39,499 bases of DNA from Shigella phage SFP20. The position numbers and the translations under genes are program-made. The stretch is taken from sequence record OQ031076. One strand, given 5' to 3'. The notes under the pieces are model-generated. The model made no database searches. It was not told where the DNA came from and saw only the letters and a list, made by a program, of their open reading frames with translations. The stretch's first letter is position 1, and the number at the start of each line of letters is the position of its first letter. Of the stretch, positions 17,302-23,521 are shown one piece after another.

Positions 17302-17460
17302 ATGGGTAAGACCAAAGCTGTTCTCAAAGCTCTGGCGATCAATAGAGCTACATACAGGTTTCTTGCTGCTGTTCTACTTGCTACTGGCGTTACTGCTGGA
17401 AGTCAGTGGGTCGGGTGGGTCGAGACTCTCGTATGTACTCTGGTGTCTGAGTGTAATTAA
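17302..17460 (+). CDS. 19.5: small hydrophobic protein (gene 19.5 position)
   Basis: 52 aa ORF (MGKTKAVLKALAINRATYRFLAAVLLATGVTAG...) with RBS GGAGG; below the 60-aa track cut-off; assigned by position. Confidence 0.55.
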   Translation: MGKTKAVLKALAINRATYRFLAAVLLATGVTAGSQWVGWVETLVCTLVSECN

Positions 17461-17492
17461 CGCCATCATGGTAACAATCAACGAAAGACGGA

Positions 17493-17534
17493 CCTAAGGT
17501 CAGTTCATAGCTGACGCTACTCTACTGACCTTAG
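17493..17534. repeat. perfect 10-bp inverted repeat (CTAAGGTCAG / CTGACCTTAG) with about 20-nt loop near the right genome end
   Basis: Read directly; no following T-tract, so not a typical terminator. Confidence 0.6.
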
Positions 17535-17697
17535 CTACTGTAGTCAAGGACTTTAGGTAACACCTTAAGAGAAGCTCACTTAGGGTCATCCTACTCACTG
17601 GTCTGCCCTAGTGTCGCCTGACCTACGGTCCTTGACCTACAGTGGCTGAGGCCTACAGTAGGGACGATGAGTTTTGGACCAAAAGTTTGAGACCACA

Positions 17698-17900
17698 TCT
17701 CACAGTTCAAGAACCTCAAGTCTCCCCATAGGCCCTCTTTCAGTCCAGACCAAAGGCCCTACCCCTAGACCTTCGGTCTAAACCTCAAGTCTTTGACCCG
17801 AAGTCGACCCGAAGTCTGGACCGATAGGGCCTATATCTTGTGGTTGGGACGATGGGTCGGGACTATATGTTGTGTCCTTGAGTCTCTATCTGTATCAGCC
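17698..17900. repeat. probable direct terminal repeat (collapsed to one copy) and physical genome end region
   Basis: TCTCACAGT at 17698-17706 matches the first bases of the T7 left end; CCTTGAGTCTCTATCTGTATC near 17875-17895 resembles the T7 TR end (CCTTGAGTGTCTCTCTGTGTCC). Boundaries approximate. Confidence 0.4.
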
Positions 17901-17905
17901 TCAAG

Positions 17906-18027
17906 TCATCACTACAGTCATCACTACAGTCATCACCTACAGTCAACCAGCCTACAGTCAATCCCTAAGTGATGGCCTACCTACAGTCACCAGACCTACA
18001 GTCAATAGACACCATGTCGACCTACAG
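17906..18027. repeat. array of short direct repeats ending in CCTACAGT (CATCACTACAGT x2, CATCACCTACAGT, and others)
   Basis: Tandem and dispersed ...CTACAGT units; positional analogue of the T7 left-end CCTAAAG repeat series. Similar units at 17620-17660 on the other side of the putative TR. Confidence 0.7.
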
Positions 18028-18241
18028 TTTATCAGAGTCCTAAGGTCTAGACTCACAGGTTATCACATCCGGTCCGTTTAGCAGTCAGAGACCATAGCTG
18101 ACTAGGGTTATTGTTGTTGGTGTCTGCCAACTGGACTCTTATTATCCATAGTCCAGACCTAAAGTCAATCACCTGTAGTCGATAATGGTCTTCCTTATAT
18201 AGTCACTGGACTACTGTATAAATTACCATGATAAATAGTTG

Positions 18242-18270
18242 TTGACAGTAGGTCTAACTTTTGGTTTAAT
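18242..18270 (+). promoter_or_regulatory. sigma70-type early promoter (A1-like): TTGACA, 17 bp, TTTAAT with upstream TG
   Basis: TTGACAGTAGGTCTAACTTTTGGTTTAAT; spacer contains GTCTAAC as in T7 A1. Confidence 0.6.
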
Positions 18271-18399
18271 AGCTTCCGTCAACACGACACGGCAACAACC
18301 GGATAGTGAAGACGCCGGGTCGGTCCGGTTAAGTAGTCAGCCTGTAAGACATACGAAAAACAGGCAACCGACAGCTAGGCGACTAGCGACAGAAAGTAG

Positions 18400-18429
18400 T
18401 TGACAAGATGTACCGACTTAAAGTAGTAT
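18400..18429 (+). promoter_or_regulatory. sigma70-type early promoter (A3-like): TTGACA, 18 bp, TAGTAT
   Basis: Downstream GTACCACATCGAAACGACAGTGAAG is nearly identical to the T7 A3 initial transcribed region (GTACCACATGAAACGACAGTGAG). Confidence 0.7.
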
Positions 18430-18554
18430 GTACCACATCGAAACGACAGTGAAGCCTAACACTGAAACAGGCTAGCGAGGCGACGACAGCCGAGCGAATG
18501 CTCTTTAACAATCTGGATAACTCTTAATGTGCGCCGATAATGCTAGTAAGCGAT

Positions 18555-18625
18555 TAACTCAAGAGACTTGTTGGCTACTGCGGGTCAGGCTCAAGATGAG
18601 CGCCTCAGGTCTCTTTCTGATAATC
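18555..18625 (+). promoter_or_regulatory. putative RNase III site upstream of gene 0.3 (R0.3 position)
   Basis: Preceded by CTCTTTAACAATCTGG, as in T7 upstream of R0.3; AACTCAAG ... TCTCTTTCTGATAATC flanks with internal inverted repeats (AGAGAC/GTCTCT). Confidence 0.5.
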
Positions 18626-18649
18626 ACTCACACTTAAAGGATACACATC

Positions 18650-19102
18650 ATGATTTACACTAACGAACCAGCCAACGTCTTCTATGTGCTCGTGTCTGCC
18701 GCTCGTGCTAACCTGTCTGATATGGCTAACATGGCCCGTCAGTTAGACCTTAAGGCACTGCTGCAAGCCGAACCTGAATACTACGGTGTGCTTGAATGCA
18801 CTGGGCTTACAGGCTGCTACCGCGAGGAGGGACAAGAGGTCGCCACTGAAGAGAGAACCTACCGTGTGCGCTGTGAGTCCAAGGCTCAAGCTATCAACGT
18901 TGCACGACTGGCCTGCAATGACTTTGAGCAAGACTGCGTGATGGTCTACAAGTCTCAGACTCACACGGCTGGACTGATGTTCTGCAAAGGCTTGGACGGG
19001 TTCAAGACCACACGTCTGAACGGGTCATTCCAGCAAGTCGATGCACCAAAGGGCGAATGCTTCACGAAAGACGCTGAAGGGCGCTTCTGGGAGGTGGTGT
19101 AA
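18650..19102 (+). CDS. 0.3: S-adenosylmethionine lyase/hydrolase (T3-type gene 0.3 anti-restriction protein)
   Basis: 150 aa; N-terminus MIYTNEPANVFYVLVSA... and motifs TGCYRE, VYKSQTHTAGL closely match my recollection of the T3 SAMase (about 152 aa); first early gene after the sigma70 promoters. Confidence 0.8.
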   Translation: MIYTNEPANVFYVLVSAARANLSDMANMARQLDLKALLQAEPEYYGVLECTGLTGCYREEGQEVATEERTYRVRCESKAQAINVARLACNDFEQDCVMVYKSQTHTAGLMFCKGLDGFKTTRLNGSFQQVDAPKGECFTKDAEGRFWEVV

Positions 19103-19103
19103 G

Positions 19104-19307
19104 ATGGTTAACTCATACCCTAATCACATCAAGCCATGGATAACGGTTGATATTGAGACCGTGGGCGACTCCAAGTTTGTGACCATACGGTCGAGCATAC
19201 ACGTTAACAAGGAGTTCAAACTTCCTCATAGCTATAGCCTGAGCTGGGGAGATTGGGAGATTCTACGGGATTCCGCTTTCCTCAAGTACGCCGGGAGGTT
19301 CTACTGA
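19104..19307 (+). CDS. hypothetical early protein
   Basis: 67 aa from the ATG at 19104 with RBS GGGAGGTGG; the track ORF 19041..19307 extends upstream into gene 0.3. Confidence 0.5.
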   Translation: MVNSYPNHIKPWITVDIETVGDSKFVTIRSSIHVNKEFKLPHSYSLSWGDWEILRDSAFLKYAGRFY

Positions 19308-19432
19308 TGTACACGATAAGCTACAGCAGTGAGCAAGCCTTCTATGACGGTCTAGTCGAGCTAATGAAGCGCGGGGCCTGCTACACGGCTAACCACCATG
19401 CGTTAACCATAACGCTGACAGGCGGGTACTGA
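19307..19432 (+). CDS. hypothetical small early protein (41 aa)
   Basis: ATG overlapping the upstream stop (TGATG); coding-like codon usage; below track cut-off. Confidence 0.3.
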   Translation: MYTISYSSEQAFYDGLVELMKRGACYTANHHALTITLTGGY

Positions 19433-19440
19433 GTGCCAGA

Positions 19441-19475
19441 CTACAGGTCATCCATGCGGGTGGCCTGACTGATTG
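19441..19475 (+). promoter_or_regulatory. putative RNase III stem-loop (R0.5 position)
   Basis: CAGGTCATCCATGCGGGTGGCCTGACTGATTG shares the AGGTCAT ... GTGGCCT ... TGATT pattern with the other candidate sites. Confidence 0.4.
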
Positions 19476-19505
19476 TCACTTAACCACAAGAAGGAAACAC
19501 ACGTA

Positions 19506-20240
19506 ATGAACGCACACGATAAAGTAATCATGAATAACCTGATGTCCCAGCTTCACGCTATCATCTGTCAGGCTGACTACAAGGTGGAGTCGCTGGGGTC
19601 TGGCATAGCTGCGCAAGACCGCTGGGGAGCCTTTGAGATACTGGCGAGGGAACATGGTTACAGGCTGTTAGGACTGGGACACTTCGCCGCTGCCTTTGAG
19701 CATGAGGACCTGCCGGGATATGCAATCAAGGTGGGCTTCAAGAAGGATGACTCAGGCGCTGCATATGCGGCCTTCTGCCGAGAGAATGAGGGTCTGGCTG
19801 GACTACCAATCATCCATCTGGTCAAGCGCTTCAGCAGGGCGTACATGGTGGCTATGGACAAGTACCGCTCACTGAATGACATCGGCGGGGGCTACTGCCG
19901 GGACGGTGAGACCTACGAGCAACGAGTCTTGAACGTGTCGTGGCGTGTAGTGAACGCAATAATAGACCAATGCGAGATGCCAGCCGCTGCACTGACTTGG
20001 TGGCTGGACAATGAGGCCCGACAAGAGTTTGCACACGTCGAGACCCAGTACATCAAGCAACTGGCGACCACAGCGCGTAAGATTCACACGTTCTTCTACG
20101 GTCTGGCGAGCTTCGACACTCACCGGGCAAACGTGATGGTCGATAACAACGGGCGCTTGATAATCACGGACCCGGTGTCTTGGACCTCAGCAGATCATCA
20201 AGACGACATGGCGAACAAGCTGAACGCAATAGCTGAATAG
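19506..20240 (+). CDS. 0.7: serine/threonine protein kinase (gene 0.7), kinase domain only
   Basis: Motifs shared with T7 gp0.7: GHFAAAFEH, IKVGFKKDDSGAAYAAFCR, ASFDTH, ITDPVS. 244 aa from the ATG at 19506 vs about 359 aa in T7; the basic C-terminal region is absent. Confidence 0.8.
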   Translation: MNAHDKVIMNNLMSQLHAIICQADYKVESLGSGIAAQDRWGAFEILAREHGYRLLGLGHFAAAFEHEDLPGYAIKVGFKKDDSGAAYAAFCRENEGLAGLPIIHLVKRFSRAYMVAMDKYRSLNDIGGGYCRDGETYEQRVLNVSWRVVNAIIDQCEMPAAALTWWLDNEARQEFAHVETQYIKQLATTARKIHTFFYGLASFDTHRANVMVDNNGRLIITDPVSWTSADHQDDMANKLNAIAE

Positions 20241-20309
20241 TGATAGACGAGAGGTCATCGAACGATAGGTGGCCTCAAAGATTATTACTTCAAACGATAG
20301 GTGAGAACT

Positions 20310-20507
20310 ATGATACCAATAGCACTGATAGTCATCGGCTATGGGCTGATACTCTGGGTCATCCTCCGGGACATCCAGAAGGCACGTAAAGTCTACAAAT
20401 TCAACTATGTGTCGCTCGGTCGCTGGACTGTGCGTCAACCAAACGGGCGCTTTATGCGTAACTTAGCGAATGTCTGGGACATCGCAACCTTAGGGAGCAA
20501 GCTATGA
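20310..20507 (+). CDS. hypothetical small membrane protein
   Basis: 65 aa with hydrophobic N-terminus (IPIALIVIGYGLILWVIL); ATG at 20310 within the track ORF 20301..20507. Confidence 0.5.
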   Translation: MIPIALIVIGYGLILWVILRDIQKARKVYKFNYVSLGRWTVRQPNGRFMRNLANVWDIATLGSKL

Positions 20508-20758
20508 GCTACAAACACAAGACCTCGCGTTACACCGTTCGTCAACAACAGGAGCGCGACCGGGTACTACAGGCAAGACTCCGGGCTGAGGGCCACAAGG
20601 CCGAGCTGATGTGTCTGGCATACGGTGGACGACCACGCACTGAAGATGGTAAACTTCTGGTCTCAGGCTGGAGGGCGATAGACCAGCGGTCAGCCATCCG
20701 TCACACGACTAAAGGCGACTTCAGTCACCTCCACGCTAACCCTTTGATATGCAAGTGA
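20504..20758 (+). CDS. hypothetical early protein
   Basis: 84 aa ORF with ATGA overlap with the upstream ORF; basic N-terminus. Confidence 0.45.
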   Translation: MSYKHKTSRYTVRQQQERDRVLQARLRAEGHKAELMCLAYGGRPRTEDGKLLVSGWRAIDQRSAIRHTTKGDFSHLHANPLICK

Positions 20759-20762
20759 TTTG

Positions 20763-20785
20763 AATATACCCTCACTAGAGGACTC
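20763..20785 (+). promoter_or_regulatory. variant phage-promoter-like element (CCCTCACTAGAGG) upstream of gene 1
   Basis: AATATACCCTCACTAGAGGACTC: one mismatch (TAGA for TATA) to the family consensus; followed by the GACTCAAGG motif. Confidence 0.4.
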
Positions 20786-20854
20786 AAGGTCTAAGACTTC
20801 AGTTAAAGACCAAAGAGACTTTAAGTGAAAGACTAACAAACAAGGACTTTAAGT

Positions 20855-23521
20855 ATGAGCGTCATTCAGCTTGAGAAGCACGACTTCTCGGACATCTCCA
20901 ACGCTATCGAGCCGTTTAACATTCTGGCTGACCACTACGGGCAGGACCTCGCAGTCAAACAGCTTCAGCTTGAGCATGAGGCATACACTGAAGGCGAGCG
21001 TCGTTTCATCAAGAATCTTGAGCGTCAGGCTGAGCGCGGGGAGCTGGCTGATAATCAGGTCGCAAGACCACTGATGCAAACTCTGGTCCCTAAACTGGCG
21101 CAAGCCGTCAAGGAGTGGCACGAGACCCAAGGGTCAACCCGTGGTAAACCTCAGGTCGCCTTCCTGAAGCTGAGCACTGAGTCGAAACCTCGTGCGCTAC
21201 TGGTCCAGCCTGAGTCGGTGGCGGTCATCGTCCTGAAGATTGCGCTCTCCAAGCTGGTCAAGCCTGAAGGCGTACCGATTACACCGATGGCCTCCGCGAT
21301 TGGTCGCACACTTGAGGATGAAATCCGCTTCGGTCGCATCCGTGACCAAGAGCAGGAGCACTTCAAGAAGACCATAGCCGAGAACCTGAAGAAACGCGCT
21401 GGCGTGGCCTACAAGAAAGCCTACATGCAAGCGGTCGAAGCCTCCATGCTGGACCAGAAGCAACTGGCTGATGCGTGGGGAACATGGTCGCCTGATGAGG
21501 CTGTACATGTTGGCATCAAGATGCTGGAGCTTCTCATCCAGTCCACACAACTGGTCGAACTGAAGCGCCACAACGCCGGGAACGCAGCGTCAGACGTCGA
21601 GATGGTCCACTTGTCGGACTTCTGGGCCAAGAAGATGGCACAGCGTGGCTACTCACTGGCAGGCATCGCCCCGGTTTACCAGCCTTGTGTCGTGCCTCCA
21701 CGTCCTTGGAACTCGGTGGTCGGTGGCGGGTACTGGGCTAAAGGTCGCAGACCTCTCCCGCTGATGCGCTTAGGGTCGAAGGCCGCTATCGCTCGCTACG
21801 AGGAAGTTTACATGCCTGAAGTCTACGAGGCAGTGAACATCATTCAGCAGACTCCTTGGAAGGTGAACAAGAAGGTTCTGGACGTAGTGAACATGGTCGA
21901 GAAGCTGAACAATACGCCTATCGCTGACATCCCACAGATGGACCCGATGAAACCTGAGGACTACAACGGGGAGACCGAGGAGGAGCTGAAGGCGTGGAAG
22001 AAAGCAGCCGCTGGAATCTATCGCCGCGAGAAGGCCCGACAGTCCCGCCGTTTGTCCCTGAGCTTCATCGTCGGACAGGCGAACAAGTTCTCTCAGTTCA
22101 AGGCCATCTGGTTCCCGTACAACATGGACTGGCGCGGTCGAGTCTACGCGGTCCCGATGTTCAACCCACAGGGCAACGACATGCAAAAGGGTCTACTGAC
22201 TCTGGCAGTCGGCAAGCCAATCGGTGCGGACGGATTCAAGTGGCTTAAGGTCCACGGTGCGAACTGTGCGGGTGTCGATAAAGTCACCTTTGAGGAGCGC
22301 ATCAAGTGGGTGGAAGACAACCATGACAACATTCTCGCAGCCGCGAAGTCTCCGATGGACAGCATCGACTGGTGGGGTCAGTTAGACTCTCCGTTCTGCT
22401 TCCTCGCCTTCTGCTTCGAGTATGCTGGAGTCATGCACCACGGGCTGAGCTACTCCTGCTCTCTGCCTATCGCGTTCGATGGGTCATGCTCTGGGATTCA
22501 GCACTTCAGCGCAATGCTTCGGGACCACGTTGGTGGACATGCGGTCAACCTGACGCCAAGCGGGAAGGTCCAAGACATCTACCGCATCGTGTCTGACGAA
22601 GTGGAGGAGCGACTCAAGGAGCTGCTGGTCAACGGTAGCGACAACGAAGTCAAGACCTTCGAGGACAAGAAGACTGGCGAGATTACTGAACGTCTCATCC
22701 TCGGGACCCGTGAGCTGGCCCGGCAGTGGCTGACCTACGGAATGTCACGCTCGGTCACTAAACGCTCTGTCATGACTCTGGCCTACGGGTCGAAGGAATA
22801 CGGGTTCGCGGACCAAGTGTTCGAGGACACCGTGATGCCAGCGATTGATGCAGGCAAGGGGGCGATGTTCACAGACCCGAGCCAAGCGTCTCGCTTCATG
22901 GCTAAGATGATTTGGGATGCAGTGAGCGTGACTGTGGTAGCTGCGGTGGACGCGATGAAGTGGCTGCAAGGCGCGGCTAAGCTGCTGGCTGCTGAGGTCA
23001 AGGACAAGAAGACCAAAGAGGTCCTGAAGCCGTGCCTCCCGGTTCACTGGGTCACGCCTGATGGCTTCCCGGTCTGGCAGGAGTACCGCAAGAAGGACAC
23101 CACACGTCTGGACCTGATGTTCCTAGGGACTTTCCGTCTGCAACCCACAGTCAACAAAGGGGCGAGCAAGGAGCTGGACAAGCACAAGCAGGAGTCAGGC
23201 ATCAGCCCGAACTTCGTCCACTCACAGGATGGCAGTCACCTGAGGAAGACTGTAGTCCACACTCACCGCAAGTATGGAGTCATGAGCTTTGCGGTCATTC
23301 ATGATAGCTTCGGGACCATCCCGGCAGACGCTGAGTTCCTGTTCAAGGGCGTCCGCGAGACTATGGTCGAGACCTACCGCGACAACGATGTGCTGCAAGA
23401 CTTCTACGAGCAGTTCGCGGACCAGCTTCATGAGACCCAGCGCGATAAGCTGCCTGAGTTACCGAAGCGTGGTAAACTGAACATTGAAGACATTCTGTCA
23501 TCTGACTTTGCATTCGCCTAA
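20855..23521 (+). CDS. 1: single-subunit DNA-dependent RNA polymerase (gene 1)
   Basis: 888 aa; extensive identity to T7/T3 RNAP (LADHYG, GERRF, RFGRIRD, LVELKRHNAGNA, QPCVVPP.PW, IWFPYNMDWRGRVYAVPMFNPQGNDM.KGLLTLA, DSPFCFLAFCFEYAG, FDGSCSGIQHFSAMLRD, RSVTKRSVMTLAYGSKE, HKQESGI.PNFVHSQDGSHLR, IHDSFGT, C-terminal SDFAFA). Confidence 0.98.
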   Translation: MSVIQLEKHDFSDISNAIEPFNILADHYGQDLAVKQLQLEHEAYTEGERRFIKNLERQAERGELADNQVARPLMQTLVPKLAQAVKEWHETQGSTRGKPQVAFLKLSTESKPRALLVQPESVAVIVLKIALSKLVKPEGVPITPMASAIGRTLEDEIRFGRIRDQEQEHFKKTIAENLKKRAGVAYKKAYMQAVEASMLDQKQLADAWGTWSPDEAVHVGIKMLELLIQSTQLVELKRHNAGNAASDVEMVHLSDFWAKKMAQRGYSLAGIAPVYQPCVVPPRPWNSVVGGGYWAKGRRPLPLMRLGSKAAIARYEEVYMPEVYEAVNIIQQTPWKVNKKVLDVVNMVEKLNNTPIADIPQMDPMKPEDYNGETEEELKAWKKAAAGIYRREKARQSRRLSLSFIVGQANKFSQFKAIWFPYNMDWRGRVYAVPMFNPQGNDMQKGLLTLAVGKPIGADGFKWLKVHGANCAGVDKVTFEERIKWVEDNHDNILAAAKSPMDSIDWWGQLDSPFCFLAFCFEYAGVMHHGLSYSCSLPIAFDGSCSGIQHFSAMLRDHVGGHAVNLTPSGKVQDIYRIVSDEVEERLKELLVNGSDNEVKTFEDKKTGEITERLILGTRELARQWLTYGMSRSVTKRSVMTLAYGSKEYGFADQVFEDTVMPAIDAGKGAMFTDPSQASRFMAKMIWDAVSVTVVAAVDAMKWLQGAAKLLAAEVKDKKTKEVLKPCLPVHWVTPDGFPVWQEYRKKDTTRLDLMFLGTFRLQPTVNKGASKELDKHKQESGISPNFVHSQDGSHLRKTVVHTHRKYGVMSFAVIHDSFGTIPADAEFLFKGVRETMVETYRDNDVLQDFYEQFADQLHETQRDKLPELPKRGKLNIEDILSSDFAFA

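What the first reader, a model, noticed from the sequence alone, without database searches (positions are those of the whole stretch)
18650..19102. T3-type SAM lyase (gene 0.3) as first early gene instead of an Ocr DNA mimic
The first early ORF strongly resembles the T3 SAM-degrading enzyme (recalled N-terminus MIFTKEPANVFYVLVSA...), which depletes S-adenosylmethionine and blocks methyl-dependent restriction-modification. It is driven by A1/A3-like sigma70 promoters and preceded by an R0.3-like processing site. This marks the phage as T3-lineage in its anti-restriction strategy.
Basis: partly seen in the sequence, partly recalled or inferred. Interest (0 to 1): 0.55.

Follow-up and report, generated by a model that had tools for sequence, protein, structure and literature searches.

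The report
T3-type SAM lyase early gene
The ORF is a well-conserved copy of the phage T3 enzyme that destroys the host's S-adenosylmethionine to disarm restriction and BREX defences; the same gene is already annotated in closely related phages, so the finding is correct but ordinary.

Summary
Window 18650-19102 (+) is a 150-aa ORF that matches the solved T3 SAM lyase (PDB 7OCK/8BB1) end to end (E=5.4e-57, 94/152 identical). It scores 137.6 bits against Pfam PF23780, whose cut-off is 28. Every residue shown by mutagenesis to matter in T3 is kept: E68, Q94 and D95, plus the family-conserved G55 and Y57. The MetK-contact residues I2, T4, Q103, T104 and H105 are also kept; only K5 differs (N). dN/dS against eight relatives is 0.02-0.12.

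The gene starts 953 nt from the physical left end of a circularly permuted T7-like genome. It lies behind conserved A1-like and A3-like sigma-70 promoters and a hairpin homologous to the T3/T7 R0.3 RNase III site, with 7 base pairs showing compensatory changes. The window has no Ocr homologue.

One correction is needed. The phage is a Kayfunavirus, about 95.6% identical to Shigella phage SFP21B, not a Teetrevirus. A closely related phage, assigned to no genus in its record, carries a genuine Ocr in the same slot, so the gene 0.3 type is a swappable cassette and not a lineage marker. SFP21B already carries this protein at 99.3% identity, annotated as SAM hydrolase, and 508 phage records hold homologues. 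The finding is already known and of low interest.

The parts
18650..19102 (+). Gene 0.3 homologue: S-adenosylmethionine lyase, 150 aa (end includes the stop codon)
   Evidence: ORF. PDB 7OCK_L/8BB1 E=5.4e-57 over the full length. Pfam PF23780 137.6 bits against cut-off 28. 94/152 identical to T3 gp0.3, with I2, T4, G55, Y57, E67, E68, Q94, D95, Q103, T104 and H105 all kept and K5->N. dN/dS 0.02-0.12 against 8 relatives.
18637..18641 (+). Shine-Dalgarno AAGGA, 8 nt upstream of the ATG
   Evidence: Read directly from the sequence. The AGGATA core of the AAAGGATACACATCATG block is invariant in all 11 aligned phages and the rest is nearly so.
18549..18628 (+). R0.3-like hairpin (putative RNase III processing site) in the early leader
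   Evidence: Flanks AAGCGATTAACTCAAG... and ...CTTTCTGATAATCACT align to the annotated T3 R0.3 stem-loop and the matching T7 region. MFE is -27.5 kcal/mol, z=-2.67, and 2 of 200 shuffles fold as well. RNAalifold over 11 phages predicts 35 pairs, 7 with compensatory double changes. Cleavage itself was not tested.
18242..18270 (+). A1-like sigma-70 promoter: TTGACA, 17 nt spacer, TTTAAT
   Evidence: Aligns with the annotated T3 A1 -35/-10 and with T7 A1. The same hexamers occur in 8 of the 10 relatives examined. The consensus scan missed it because its -10 has T at position 2. Activity was not tested.
18400..18429 (+). A3-like sigma-70 promoter: TTGACA, 18 nt spacer, TAGTAT
   Evidence: 10 of 12 consensus matches. 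The -10 and start region GTAGTATGTACCACATCGAAACGACAGTGA aligns with T3/T7 A3. It is conserved in 9 of 10 relatives. The T3/T7 A2 -35 is degenerate here (AACCGACA).
19104..19307 (+). Adjacent 67-aa gene (DUF7300), exchanged together with the SAM lyase when compared with the Ocr-carrying relative
   Evidence: Pfam PF23974, 91.6 bits. Homology to SAKp10309 stops at 18643 and resumes at 19307. The gene is not obligately linked to the lyase: IMM-002, vB_EclP_26 and T3 have other genes in this position.

Best explanation
This is a functional orthologue of phage T3 gene 0.3, an S-adenosylmethionine lyase. Host RNA polymerase transcribes it from the A1-like and A3-like promoters as soon as the left end of the genome enters the cell. 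The transcript is probably trimmed by RNase III at the R0.3-like hairpin, and the gene is translated as the first phage protein. By homology, the enzyme cleaves SAM into 5'-methylthioadenosine and homoserine lactone. It very probably also binds the host SAM synthase MetK through its N-terminal tail and its beta4-beta5 loop, blocking resynthesis. The resulting SAM collapse disables SAM-dependent defences (type I and type III restriction-modification, BREX) before they can act on the unmodified incoming DNA. Shown here: homology, conservation of the functional residues, purifying selection, position, and conservation of the upstream signals. Inferred: catalysis, MetK binding, and which defences are defeated.
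For: Full-length match to the solved T3 SAM lyase, E=5.4e-57. Pfam S-AdoMet_lyase at 137.6 bits against a cut-off of 28. 61.8% global identity to T3 gp0.3 with a single 2-residue gap. E68, Q94 and D95 are conserved; their mutation in T3 lowers or abolishes activity or anti-BREX function (PMC7877911; 10.1101/2023.02.27.530186). G55 and Y57, the apparent equivalents (my reading of the alignment) of the family-invariant Gly56 and Tyr58 of Svi3-3, are conserved. The MetK-contact residues T4, Q103, T104 and H105, reported as strictly conserved in the family, and I2 are present. dN/dS is 0.02-0.12 against eight Kayfunavirus-group relatives while dS reaches 0.5. The gene starts 953 nt from the genome's left end, against 901 in T3 and 925 in T7. 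Promoters and hairpin are homologous to T3/T7 A1, A3 and R0.3, and the hairpin shows covariation. Homologues occur in 508 phage records, most annotated as SAM hydrolase.
Against: Nothing contradicts it. The limits are these. K5 of T3, part of the I2A/T4S/K5S triple mutant that lost MetK binding, is N in this protein. The segments 29-47 and 59-66 are divergent from T3. The host, and therefore its MetK sequence and defence repertoire, is unknown. The promoters and the RNase III site are inferred from homology and covariation only.
Confidence: 0.92

Rival explanations
1. It is a catalytically active SAM lyase that works by SAM cleavage alone. It does not bind or inhibit MetK, so it has only one of the two T3 activities.
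For: K5->N in the N-terminal tail that contacts MetK in T3 (10.1101/2023.02.27.530186). About 38% of residues differ from T3. MetK inhibition by the T3 enzyme depends on enterobacteria-specific MetK residues (PMC8406200), and the host here is unknown.
Against: I2, T4, Q103, T104 and H105 are all kept. The paper reports T4, Q103, T104 and H105 as strictly conserved across the family but does not list K5 among them. The closest phages infect Shigella, Cronobacter, Enterobacter, Klebsiella and Salmonella, which are enteric bacteria, and the MetK interface residues are reported in E. coli and closely related enteric bacteria (PMC8406200).
Confidence: 0.15
2. It is a SAM-dependent methyltransferase, as RefSeq records and PHROG 2226 label this family.
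For: The label 'SAM-dependent methyltransferase' appears on phrog_2226 and on many RefSeq phage records, including T3's own gp0.3.
Against: The label sits on T3 gp0.3 itself, whose product has been shown biochemically and structurally to be a SAM lyase (PMC7877911; PMC8406200; PDB 7OCK/8BB1). Pfam finds only S-AdoMet_lyase and no methyltransferase domain. This is an annotation error that has been copied between records.
Confidence: 0.01
3. Its physiological substrate is not SAM but a SAM-derived signal such as SAM-AMP, which would make it an anti-type III CRISPR enzyme.
For: Distant relatives of phage SAM lyases are SAM-AMP lyases, and one phage-encoded example degrades SAM-AMP in vitro (PMC12255297).
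Against: The protein is 62% identical to T3 SAM lyase, whose SAM cleavage has been demonstrated, and has the same SAM-binding residues. The published SAM-AMP lyases were compared with the distant Svi3-3 type (PMC12255297), not with the T3 subfamily. SAM-AMP signalling was described in Clostridium and Leptotrichia contexts, not in the enteric hosts of the related phages.
Confidence: 0.02
4. It is a decaying or non-functional remnant kept only by linkage.
For: Natural deletions do hit this gene: Salmonella phage ST37 carries a truncated SAM lyase fused in frame to the kinase.
Against: The ORF is intact and full length, with a good RBS and all functional residues. dN/dS is 0.02-0.12 over dS up to 0.5.
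Confidence: 0.01

Closest known systems
Phage T3 gp0.3 SAM lyase (SAMase; PDB 7OCK, 8BB1; Teetrevirus T3)
   Same: It has the same family and fold and nearly the same length (150 against 152 aa), with 61.8% identity, a collinear alignment, and all tested catalytic and MetK-contact residues except K5. It is likewise the first gene behind the A promoters and an R0.3 hairpin, about 0.9 kb from the left end.
   Different: The host phage belongs to a different genus (Kayfunavirus). There is a 2-residue deletion near the C-terminus and K5 is N. The Shine-Dalgarno GAGGTG that serves T3's internal 0.3B start at M28 is absent here, although M28 is kept. No R0.5 site follows, because the next gene's ATG is 1 nt after the stop codon. 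The A2 promoter is degenerate, and no phiOL-type phage promoter lies upstream.
SAM lyase genes of Kayfunavirus phages (Shigella phage SFP21B WBF69710.1, Klebsiella phage phi1_146013, Cronobacter phage GW1, Enterobacter phage EP1, Escherichia phage IMM-002)
   Same: Protein identity is 94-99.3%, with the same position, the same promoters and the same leader hairpin. These are the same gene.
   Different: There is one amino-acid difference from SFP21B (F117Y in SFP21B) and 7 nucleotide differences. The hairpin occurs in two compensating sequence variants and in a short variant that lacks the apical branch.
Svi3-3-type SAM lyases from environmental phages (PDB 6ZM9 and others)
   Same: The reaction is the same (SAM to MTA plus homoserine lactone) and so is the small set of substrate-binding residues: Gly56, Tyr58, Glu69 and Gln104 of Svi3-3 (PMC7877911). 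I equate these with G55, Y57, E68 and Q94 here; the papers give only E68 and Q94 explicitly.
   Different: Sequence similarity is barely detectable; the phmmer search did not retrieve the Svi3-3 chains. Svi3-3 is a trimer with no reported MetK binding, whereas T3-type enzymes form complexes with MetK (PMC8406200; 10.1101/2023.02.27.530186).
T7 Ocr (gp0.3 DNA mimic, Pfam PF08684)
   Same: It occupies the same genomic slot, has the same early timing and the same task (defeating type I R-M and BREX). In the close relative SAKp10309 an Ocr sits between identical flanks.
   Different: The protein and mechanism are unrelated: Ocr is a DNA mimic that sequesters the enzymes, not an agent of cofactor depletion. 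There is no sequence similarity, and no Ocr is present in this window.

Membership tests
T3-type S-adenosylmethionine lyase (Pfam PF23780; T3 gp0.3) | Significant full-length sequence similarity to T3 gp0.3 and the family profile | tested here: met
   phmmer against PDB 7OCK_L gives E=5.4e-57, query 1-149 against chain 1-151. PF23780 scores 137.6 bits against a cut-off of 28, profile positions 1-132 of 133. 94/152 identical.
T3-type S-adenosylmethionine lyase (Pfam PF23780; T3 gp0.3) | Substrate-binding and catalytic residues: E68, Q94 and D95 in T3 numbering, plus the family-invariant Gly and Tyr (G55, Y57) | tested here: met
   All are identical at the aligned positions, and there is no gap before residue 131. 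The roles of the residues come from PMC7877911 and 10.1101/2023.02.27.530186.
T3-type S-adenosylmethionine lyase (Pfam PF23780; T3 gp0.3) | MetK-binding elements: the N-terminal tail (I2, T4, K5) and the beta4-beta5 loop (Q103, T104, H105) | tested here: met
   I2, T4, Q103, T104 and H105 are conserved and K5 is N. The paper names T4, Q103, T104 and H105 as the strictly conserved residues. Binding itself was not tested.
T3-type S-adenosylmethionine lyase (Pfam PF23780; T3 gp0.3) | Enzymatic cleavage of SAM to MTA plus homoserine lactone | not testable with these tools
   This needs purified protein with an HPLC or NMR assay.
T3-type S-adenosylmethionine lyase (Pfam PF23780; T3 gp0.3) | Fold: antiparallel beta-barrel-like core with two outer helices, as in 7OCK | not tested
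   No model was built. At 62% identity over the full length to a solved chain, the fold is not in doubt.
T7-group class I (early) gene 0.3 position | First gene behind the host-RNAP A promoters, about 0.9 kb from the genome's left end, preceded by an RNase III-type hairpin | tested here: met
   The left end TCTCACAGTTCAAGAACC lies at 17698 and matches the T3/T7 ends, so the gene starts at +953. Promoter homology is shown. The hairpin homology and covariation are shown. Promoter activity and cleavage were not tested.
Teetrevirus (T3 lineage) as the phage's taxon | Genome-wide nucleotide relatedness to T3-like phages | tested here: not met
   The best genome matches are Kayfunavirus phages: SFP21B 95.6% over 96% of 25 kb, then SFP21A, EP1, SFPH2, Dev2 and SH4. 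T3 itself is classified as Teetrevirus.
Ocr DNA mimic (PF08684) | Any Ocr homologue in the window | tested here: not met
   tblastn of T7 Ocr against the window gives a best E of 2.5. No early ORF hits PF08684, whereas the same test identifies Ocr in SAKp10309 at 109.2 bits.

The most novel reading that the evidence does not exclude
The SAM lyase and the adjacent DUF7300 gene (18644-19306) form a two-gene module that is exchanged as a unit against an 'Ocr plus 51-aa ORF' module at sharp, conserved borders. The left border is the ribosome-binding region just downstream of the R0.3 hairpin; the right border is the start of the 41-aa gene. On this reading, DUF7300 would be a functional partner of the lyase, for example a second anti-defence factor or a modulator of SAM-depletion toxicity, and the conserved borders would serve as recombination anchors for shuffling anti-defence cassettes.
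Probability: 0.07. Interest if true: 0.4.

Novelty: already known. Interest (0 to 1): 0.1.

Why it matters
For annotation, the result tells us that this phage counters SAM-dependent defences (type I and III R-M, BREX) by cofactor depletion and not by DNA mimicry. That is useful for predicting host range or choosing therapeutic phages. It adds no new biology, because the same gene is already deposited and named in sibling phages and its T3 prototype has been characterised structurally and mechanistically. The modest added value has three parts. First, gene 0.3 type is a swappable cassette within this phage group. Second, the leader hairpin shows covariation. Third, the widespread label 'SAM-dependent methyltransferase' on this family is wrong.

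Tried and rejected
1. An Rfam scan of 17400-21000 at E<=1 found only a chance snoRNA hit below threshold. No curated family matched the leader hairpin, so homology and covariation were used.
2. Folding the whole 161-nt leader gave no signal (z=-0.43). The hairpin alone does give one (z=-2.67).
3. The consensus promoter scan missed the A1-like site because of its own rule for -10 position 2. The site was recovered by alignment to T3/T7.
4. A terminator scan of 17400-19200 found none.
5. I looked for a phiOL-type phage promoter upstream of the gene and found none within 3 mismatches.
6. I tested whether DUF7300 is an obligate partner of the lyase. It is not: IMM-002, vB_EclP_26 and T3 lack it.
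7. I considered T3-style internal initiation (0.3B). M28 is kept but the T3 Shine-Dalgarno is not, so I do not claim it.
8. I deliberately did not run structure prediction or the large protein-database searches. At 62% identity to a solved structure and 99.3% to an annotated GenBank protein, they could not change the verdict.

Full report
**Observation.** It runs from 18650 to 19102 on the + strand, starts with ATG and encodes 150 aa beginning MIYTNEPANVFYVLVSA. An AAGGA Shine-Dalgarno lies 8 nt upstream.

**Identity of the protein.**
- A phmmer search of all PDB chains returns the T3 enzyme (7OCK chain L and 8BB1, 'SAM hydrolase | S-adenosylmethionine lyase') at E=5.4e-57. The match covers query 1-149 against chain 1-151, and the next hits are at E~0.1.
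- Pfam gives only PF23780 S-AdoMet_lyase, at 137.6 bits against a curated cut-off of 28, covering 132 of 133 profile positions.
- PHROGs gives phrog_2226 at E=1.7e-46.
- Global alignment with T3 gp0.3 has 94 identities in 152 columns and a single 2-residue gap near the C-terminus.

**Functional residues.** In T3, E68Q and Q94A each cut activity about 5-fold, the double mutant is inactive, and D95A also weakens anti-BREX function; E67Q behaves like wild type (PMC7877911; bioRxiv 10.1101/2023.02.27.530186). Gly56, Tyr58, Glu69 and Gln104 of Svi3-3 are the few family-wide conserved substrate-binding residues (PMC7877911). Here G55, Y57, E67, E68, Q94 and D95 are all identical to T3. For MetK binding, the T3 N-terminal tail and the beta4-beta5 loop are used, with T4, Q103, T104 and H105 strictly conserved in the family (10.1101/2023.02.27.530186). 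Here I2, T4, Q103, T104 and H105 are kept and K5 is N.

**Selection.** Against eight relatives the gene shows dS up to 0.52 with dN/dS of 0.02-0.12. The gene is therefore under strong purifying selection and is not a remnant.

**Genomic setting.** The window is a circularly permuted T7-like genome with all long ORFs on the + strand. The sequence TCTCACAGTTCAAGAACC at 17698 matches the physical left ends of T3 and T7. The record of Escherichia phage IMM-002 starts exactly at that position. The gene therefore starts 953 nt from the left end, compared with 901 in T3 and 925 in T7. Downstream lie a DUF7300 gene, a 41-aa gene, a short gp0.7-type kinase, two small genes and the T7-type RNA polymerase at 20855. 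The only ORFs between 17698 and 18650 are short ones of 69 aa or less, on either strand, none of which looks like a gene.

**Promoters.** Alignment of 18225-18470 with the annotated T3 and T7 early control regions shows clear homology.
- An A1-like promoter lies at 18242-18270 (TTGACA, 17 nt spacer, TTTAAT).
- An A3-like promoter lies at 18400-18429 (TTGACA, 18 nt spacer, TAGTAT), followed by the T7/T3 A3 start region GTACCACAT-GAAACGACAGTGA.
- The A2 -35 element of T3/T7 (ATTGACA) reads AACCGACA here, so A2 seems to be lost.
- The scan tool independently reports the A3-like site at 10 of 12 matches. It finds 6 promoter-like sites in the region against 1.7 expected.
- The A1-like hexamers recur in 8 of the 10 relatives examined and the A3-like hexamers in 9 of 10.
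- The phage's own promoter, TAAACCCTCACTATAGGA, occurs 12 times in the genome but not between the left end and the gene. Expression should therefore depend on host RNA polymerase.
- Promoter activity is inferred, not shown.

**R0.3-like site.** The leader at 18549-18628 aligns by its flanks to the annotated T3 R0.3 stem-loop and the equivalent T7 sequence. The apical part is longer here. On its own it folds to -27.5 kcal/mol, with z=-2.67 and 2 of 200 shuffles folding as well. Across 11 phages, RNAalifold predicts 35 pairs, 7 of which keep pairing through changes on both sides. These changes come mainly from two sequence haplotypes, so the number of independent events is small. Two phages carry a short form without the apical branch, which resembles the T3/T7 size. 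Cleavage by RNase III is inferred from homology.

**Absence of Ocr and the lineage question.** tblastn of T7 Ocr against the window finds nothing better than E=2.5. The phage is not of the T3 genus. Over 25 kb it is 95.6% identical to Shigella phage SFP21B, and its next neighbours are SFP21A, EP1, SFPH2, Dev2 and SH4. SFP21B, SFP21A and EP1 are filed under Kayfunavirus in the records I opened, as are GW1 and IMM-002; the records of SFPH2, Dev2 and SH4 were not opened. T3 is a Teetrevirus.

Klebsiella phage SAKp10309 aligns with the window up to 18643 and again from 19307. Between those points it carries a Pfam-confirmed Ocr (PF08684, 109.2 bits) plus a 51-aa ORF. Its record gives no genus, but its flanks are 83-87% identical to the window. 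The type of gene 0.3 is therefore a cassette exchanged within this phage group and does not mark descent. SAM lyase homologues occur in 508 phage records from many genera, 279 of them Klebsiella phages.

**Mechanism.** By homology with T3, the protein is made first after DNA entry. It cleaves SAM to MTA and homoserine lactone (PMC7877911). It very probably binds MetK and blocks SAM synthesis (PMC8406200; 10.1101/2023.02.27.530186). Together these remove the cofactor needed by type I restriction enzymes and by BREX. The steps shown here are homology, residue conservation, selection, position and conserved signals. Catalysis, MetK binding and the defences actually defeated are inferred.

**Novelty.** There is none of substance. 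SFP21B protein WBF69710.1 ('S-adenosyl-L-methionine hydrolase') differs at one residue, and phi1_146013 also differs at one. The window's phage sits near the 95% species boundary relative to SFP21B, but that does not bear on this finding. The finding is correct and ordinary, and I score it low.

Noticed in passing
window 18644-19306 compared with L011 (Klebsiella phage SAKp10309) 1412-2079: A close relative has a genuine Ocr (168 aa, PF08684, with a C-terminal extension beyond T7's 117 aa) plus a 51-aa ORF exactly in place of the SAM lyase and DUF7300 genes. The homology borders are sharp, at window 18643 and 19307. This points to cassette exchange of anti-restriction genes within this phage group.
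   Followed up: partly
L010 (Salmonella phage ST37) 1636-2565; corresponds to a deletion of window ~19007-19655: ST37 (and ST34, by the identical hit row) carries a natural deletion that fuses SAM lyase residues 1 to ~119 in frame to the C-terminal part of the gp0.7 kinase. The result is a 309-aa chimera annotated as SAM hydrolase. The DUF7300 gene, the 41-aa gene and the kinase N-terminus are lost.
   Followed up: partly
window 20765-20782: A phage-RNAP promoter-like site (TATACCCTCACTAGAGGA, 2 mismatches to the 12-copy consensus) lies about 70 nt upstream of the RNA polymerase gene (20855). The T3 and T7 records annotate only host (E. coli) promoters in that interval. It could allow the polymerase to transcribe its own gene.
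   Followed up: no
window 4345, 11630, 17106, 20765, 24266, 25972, 27064, 29167, 31528, 35577, 38398, 39374: There are twelve copies of the phage promoter TAAACCCTCACTATAGGA. From memory, the -12 to -8 'CCCTC' is like the T3 promoter and the 'ACTATAGG' start region is like T7. None lies between the genome's left end (17698) and gene 0.3, so there is no phiOL equivalent.
   Followed up: partly
window 17698 (left end) and 17896-18010: The window is a circular permutation of a linear T7-like genome. The physical left end, TCTCACAGTTCAAGAACC, is at 17698, and the terminal repeat appears once (collapsed). Downstream is an array of CCTACAGT-type short repeats with periods of 12-15 nt, reminiscent (from memory) of the short repeats near the T7 genome ends.
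   Followed up: partly
window 18340-18400: The T3/T7 A2 promoter -35 (ATTGACA, after AAAAACAGGC) reads AACCGACA here. The segment between A2 and A3 is about 90 nt shorter than in T3/T7, as if a deletion had joined the A2 region to the A3 -10 and start region.
   Followed up: partly
window 19473-20240: The gp0.7-type protein kinase is only 255 aa (244 aa from the first ATG), against 369 aa in T3 and 359 aa in T7. It matches the 260-position phrog_15752 end to end, so it lacks the C-terminal portion present in T3/T7 gp0.7.
   Followed up: no
window 18716-18733 compared with L003 (T3) 968-984: T3's internal in-frame start 0.3B (M28) is preceded by GAGGTG. Here M28 is kept, but the upstream sequence (GATATGGCTAAC) has no Shine-Dalgarno, so a 0.3B product is unlikely.
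   Followed up: partly
database annotations (phrog_2226; RefSeq NC_003298, NC_048161, NC_048071 and others); L006 1283-1855: The family is widely mislabelled 'SAM-dependent methyltransferase', including T3 gp0.3 itself. In Salmonella phage CHRF_30116.1 the CDS is called 40 codons too long, so that it starts inside the R0.3-like hairpin.
   Followed up: yes
window 19433-19472: The intergenic stretch between the 41-aa gene and the kinase gene contains an inverted repeat (CAGGTCATCC...GGTGGCCTGA). It could be another RNase III-type processing hairpin.
   Followed up: no
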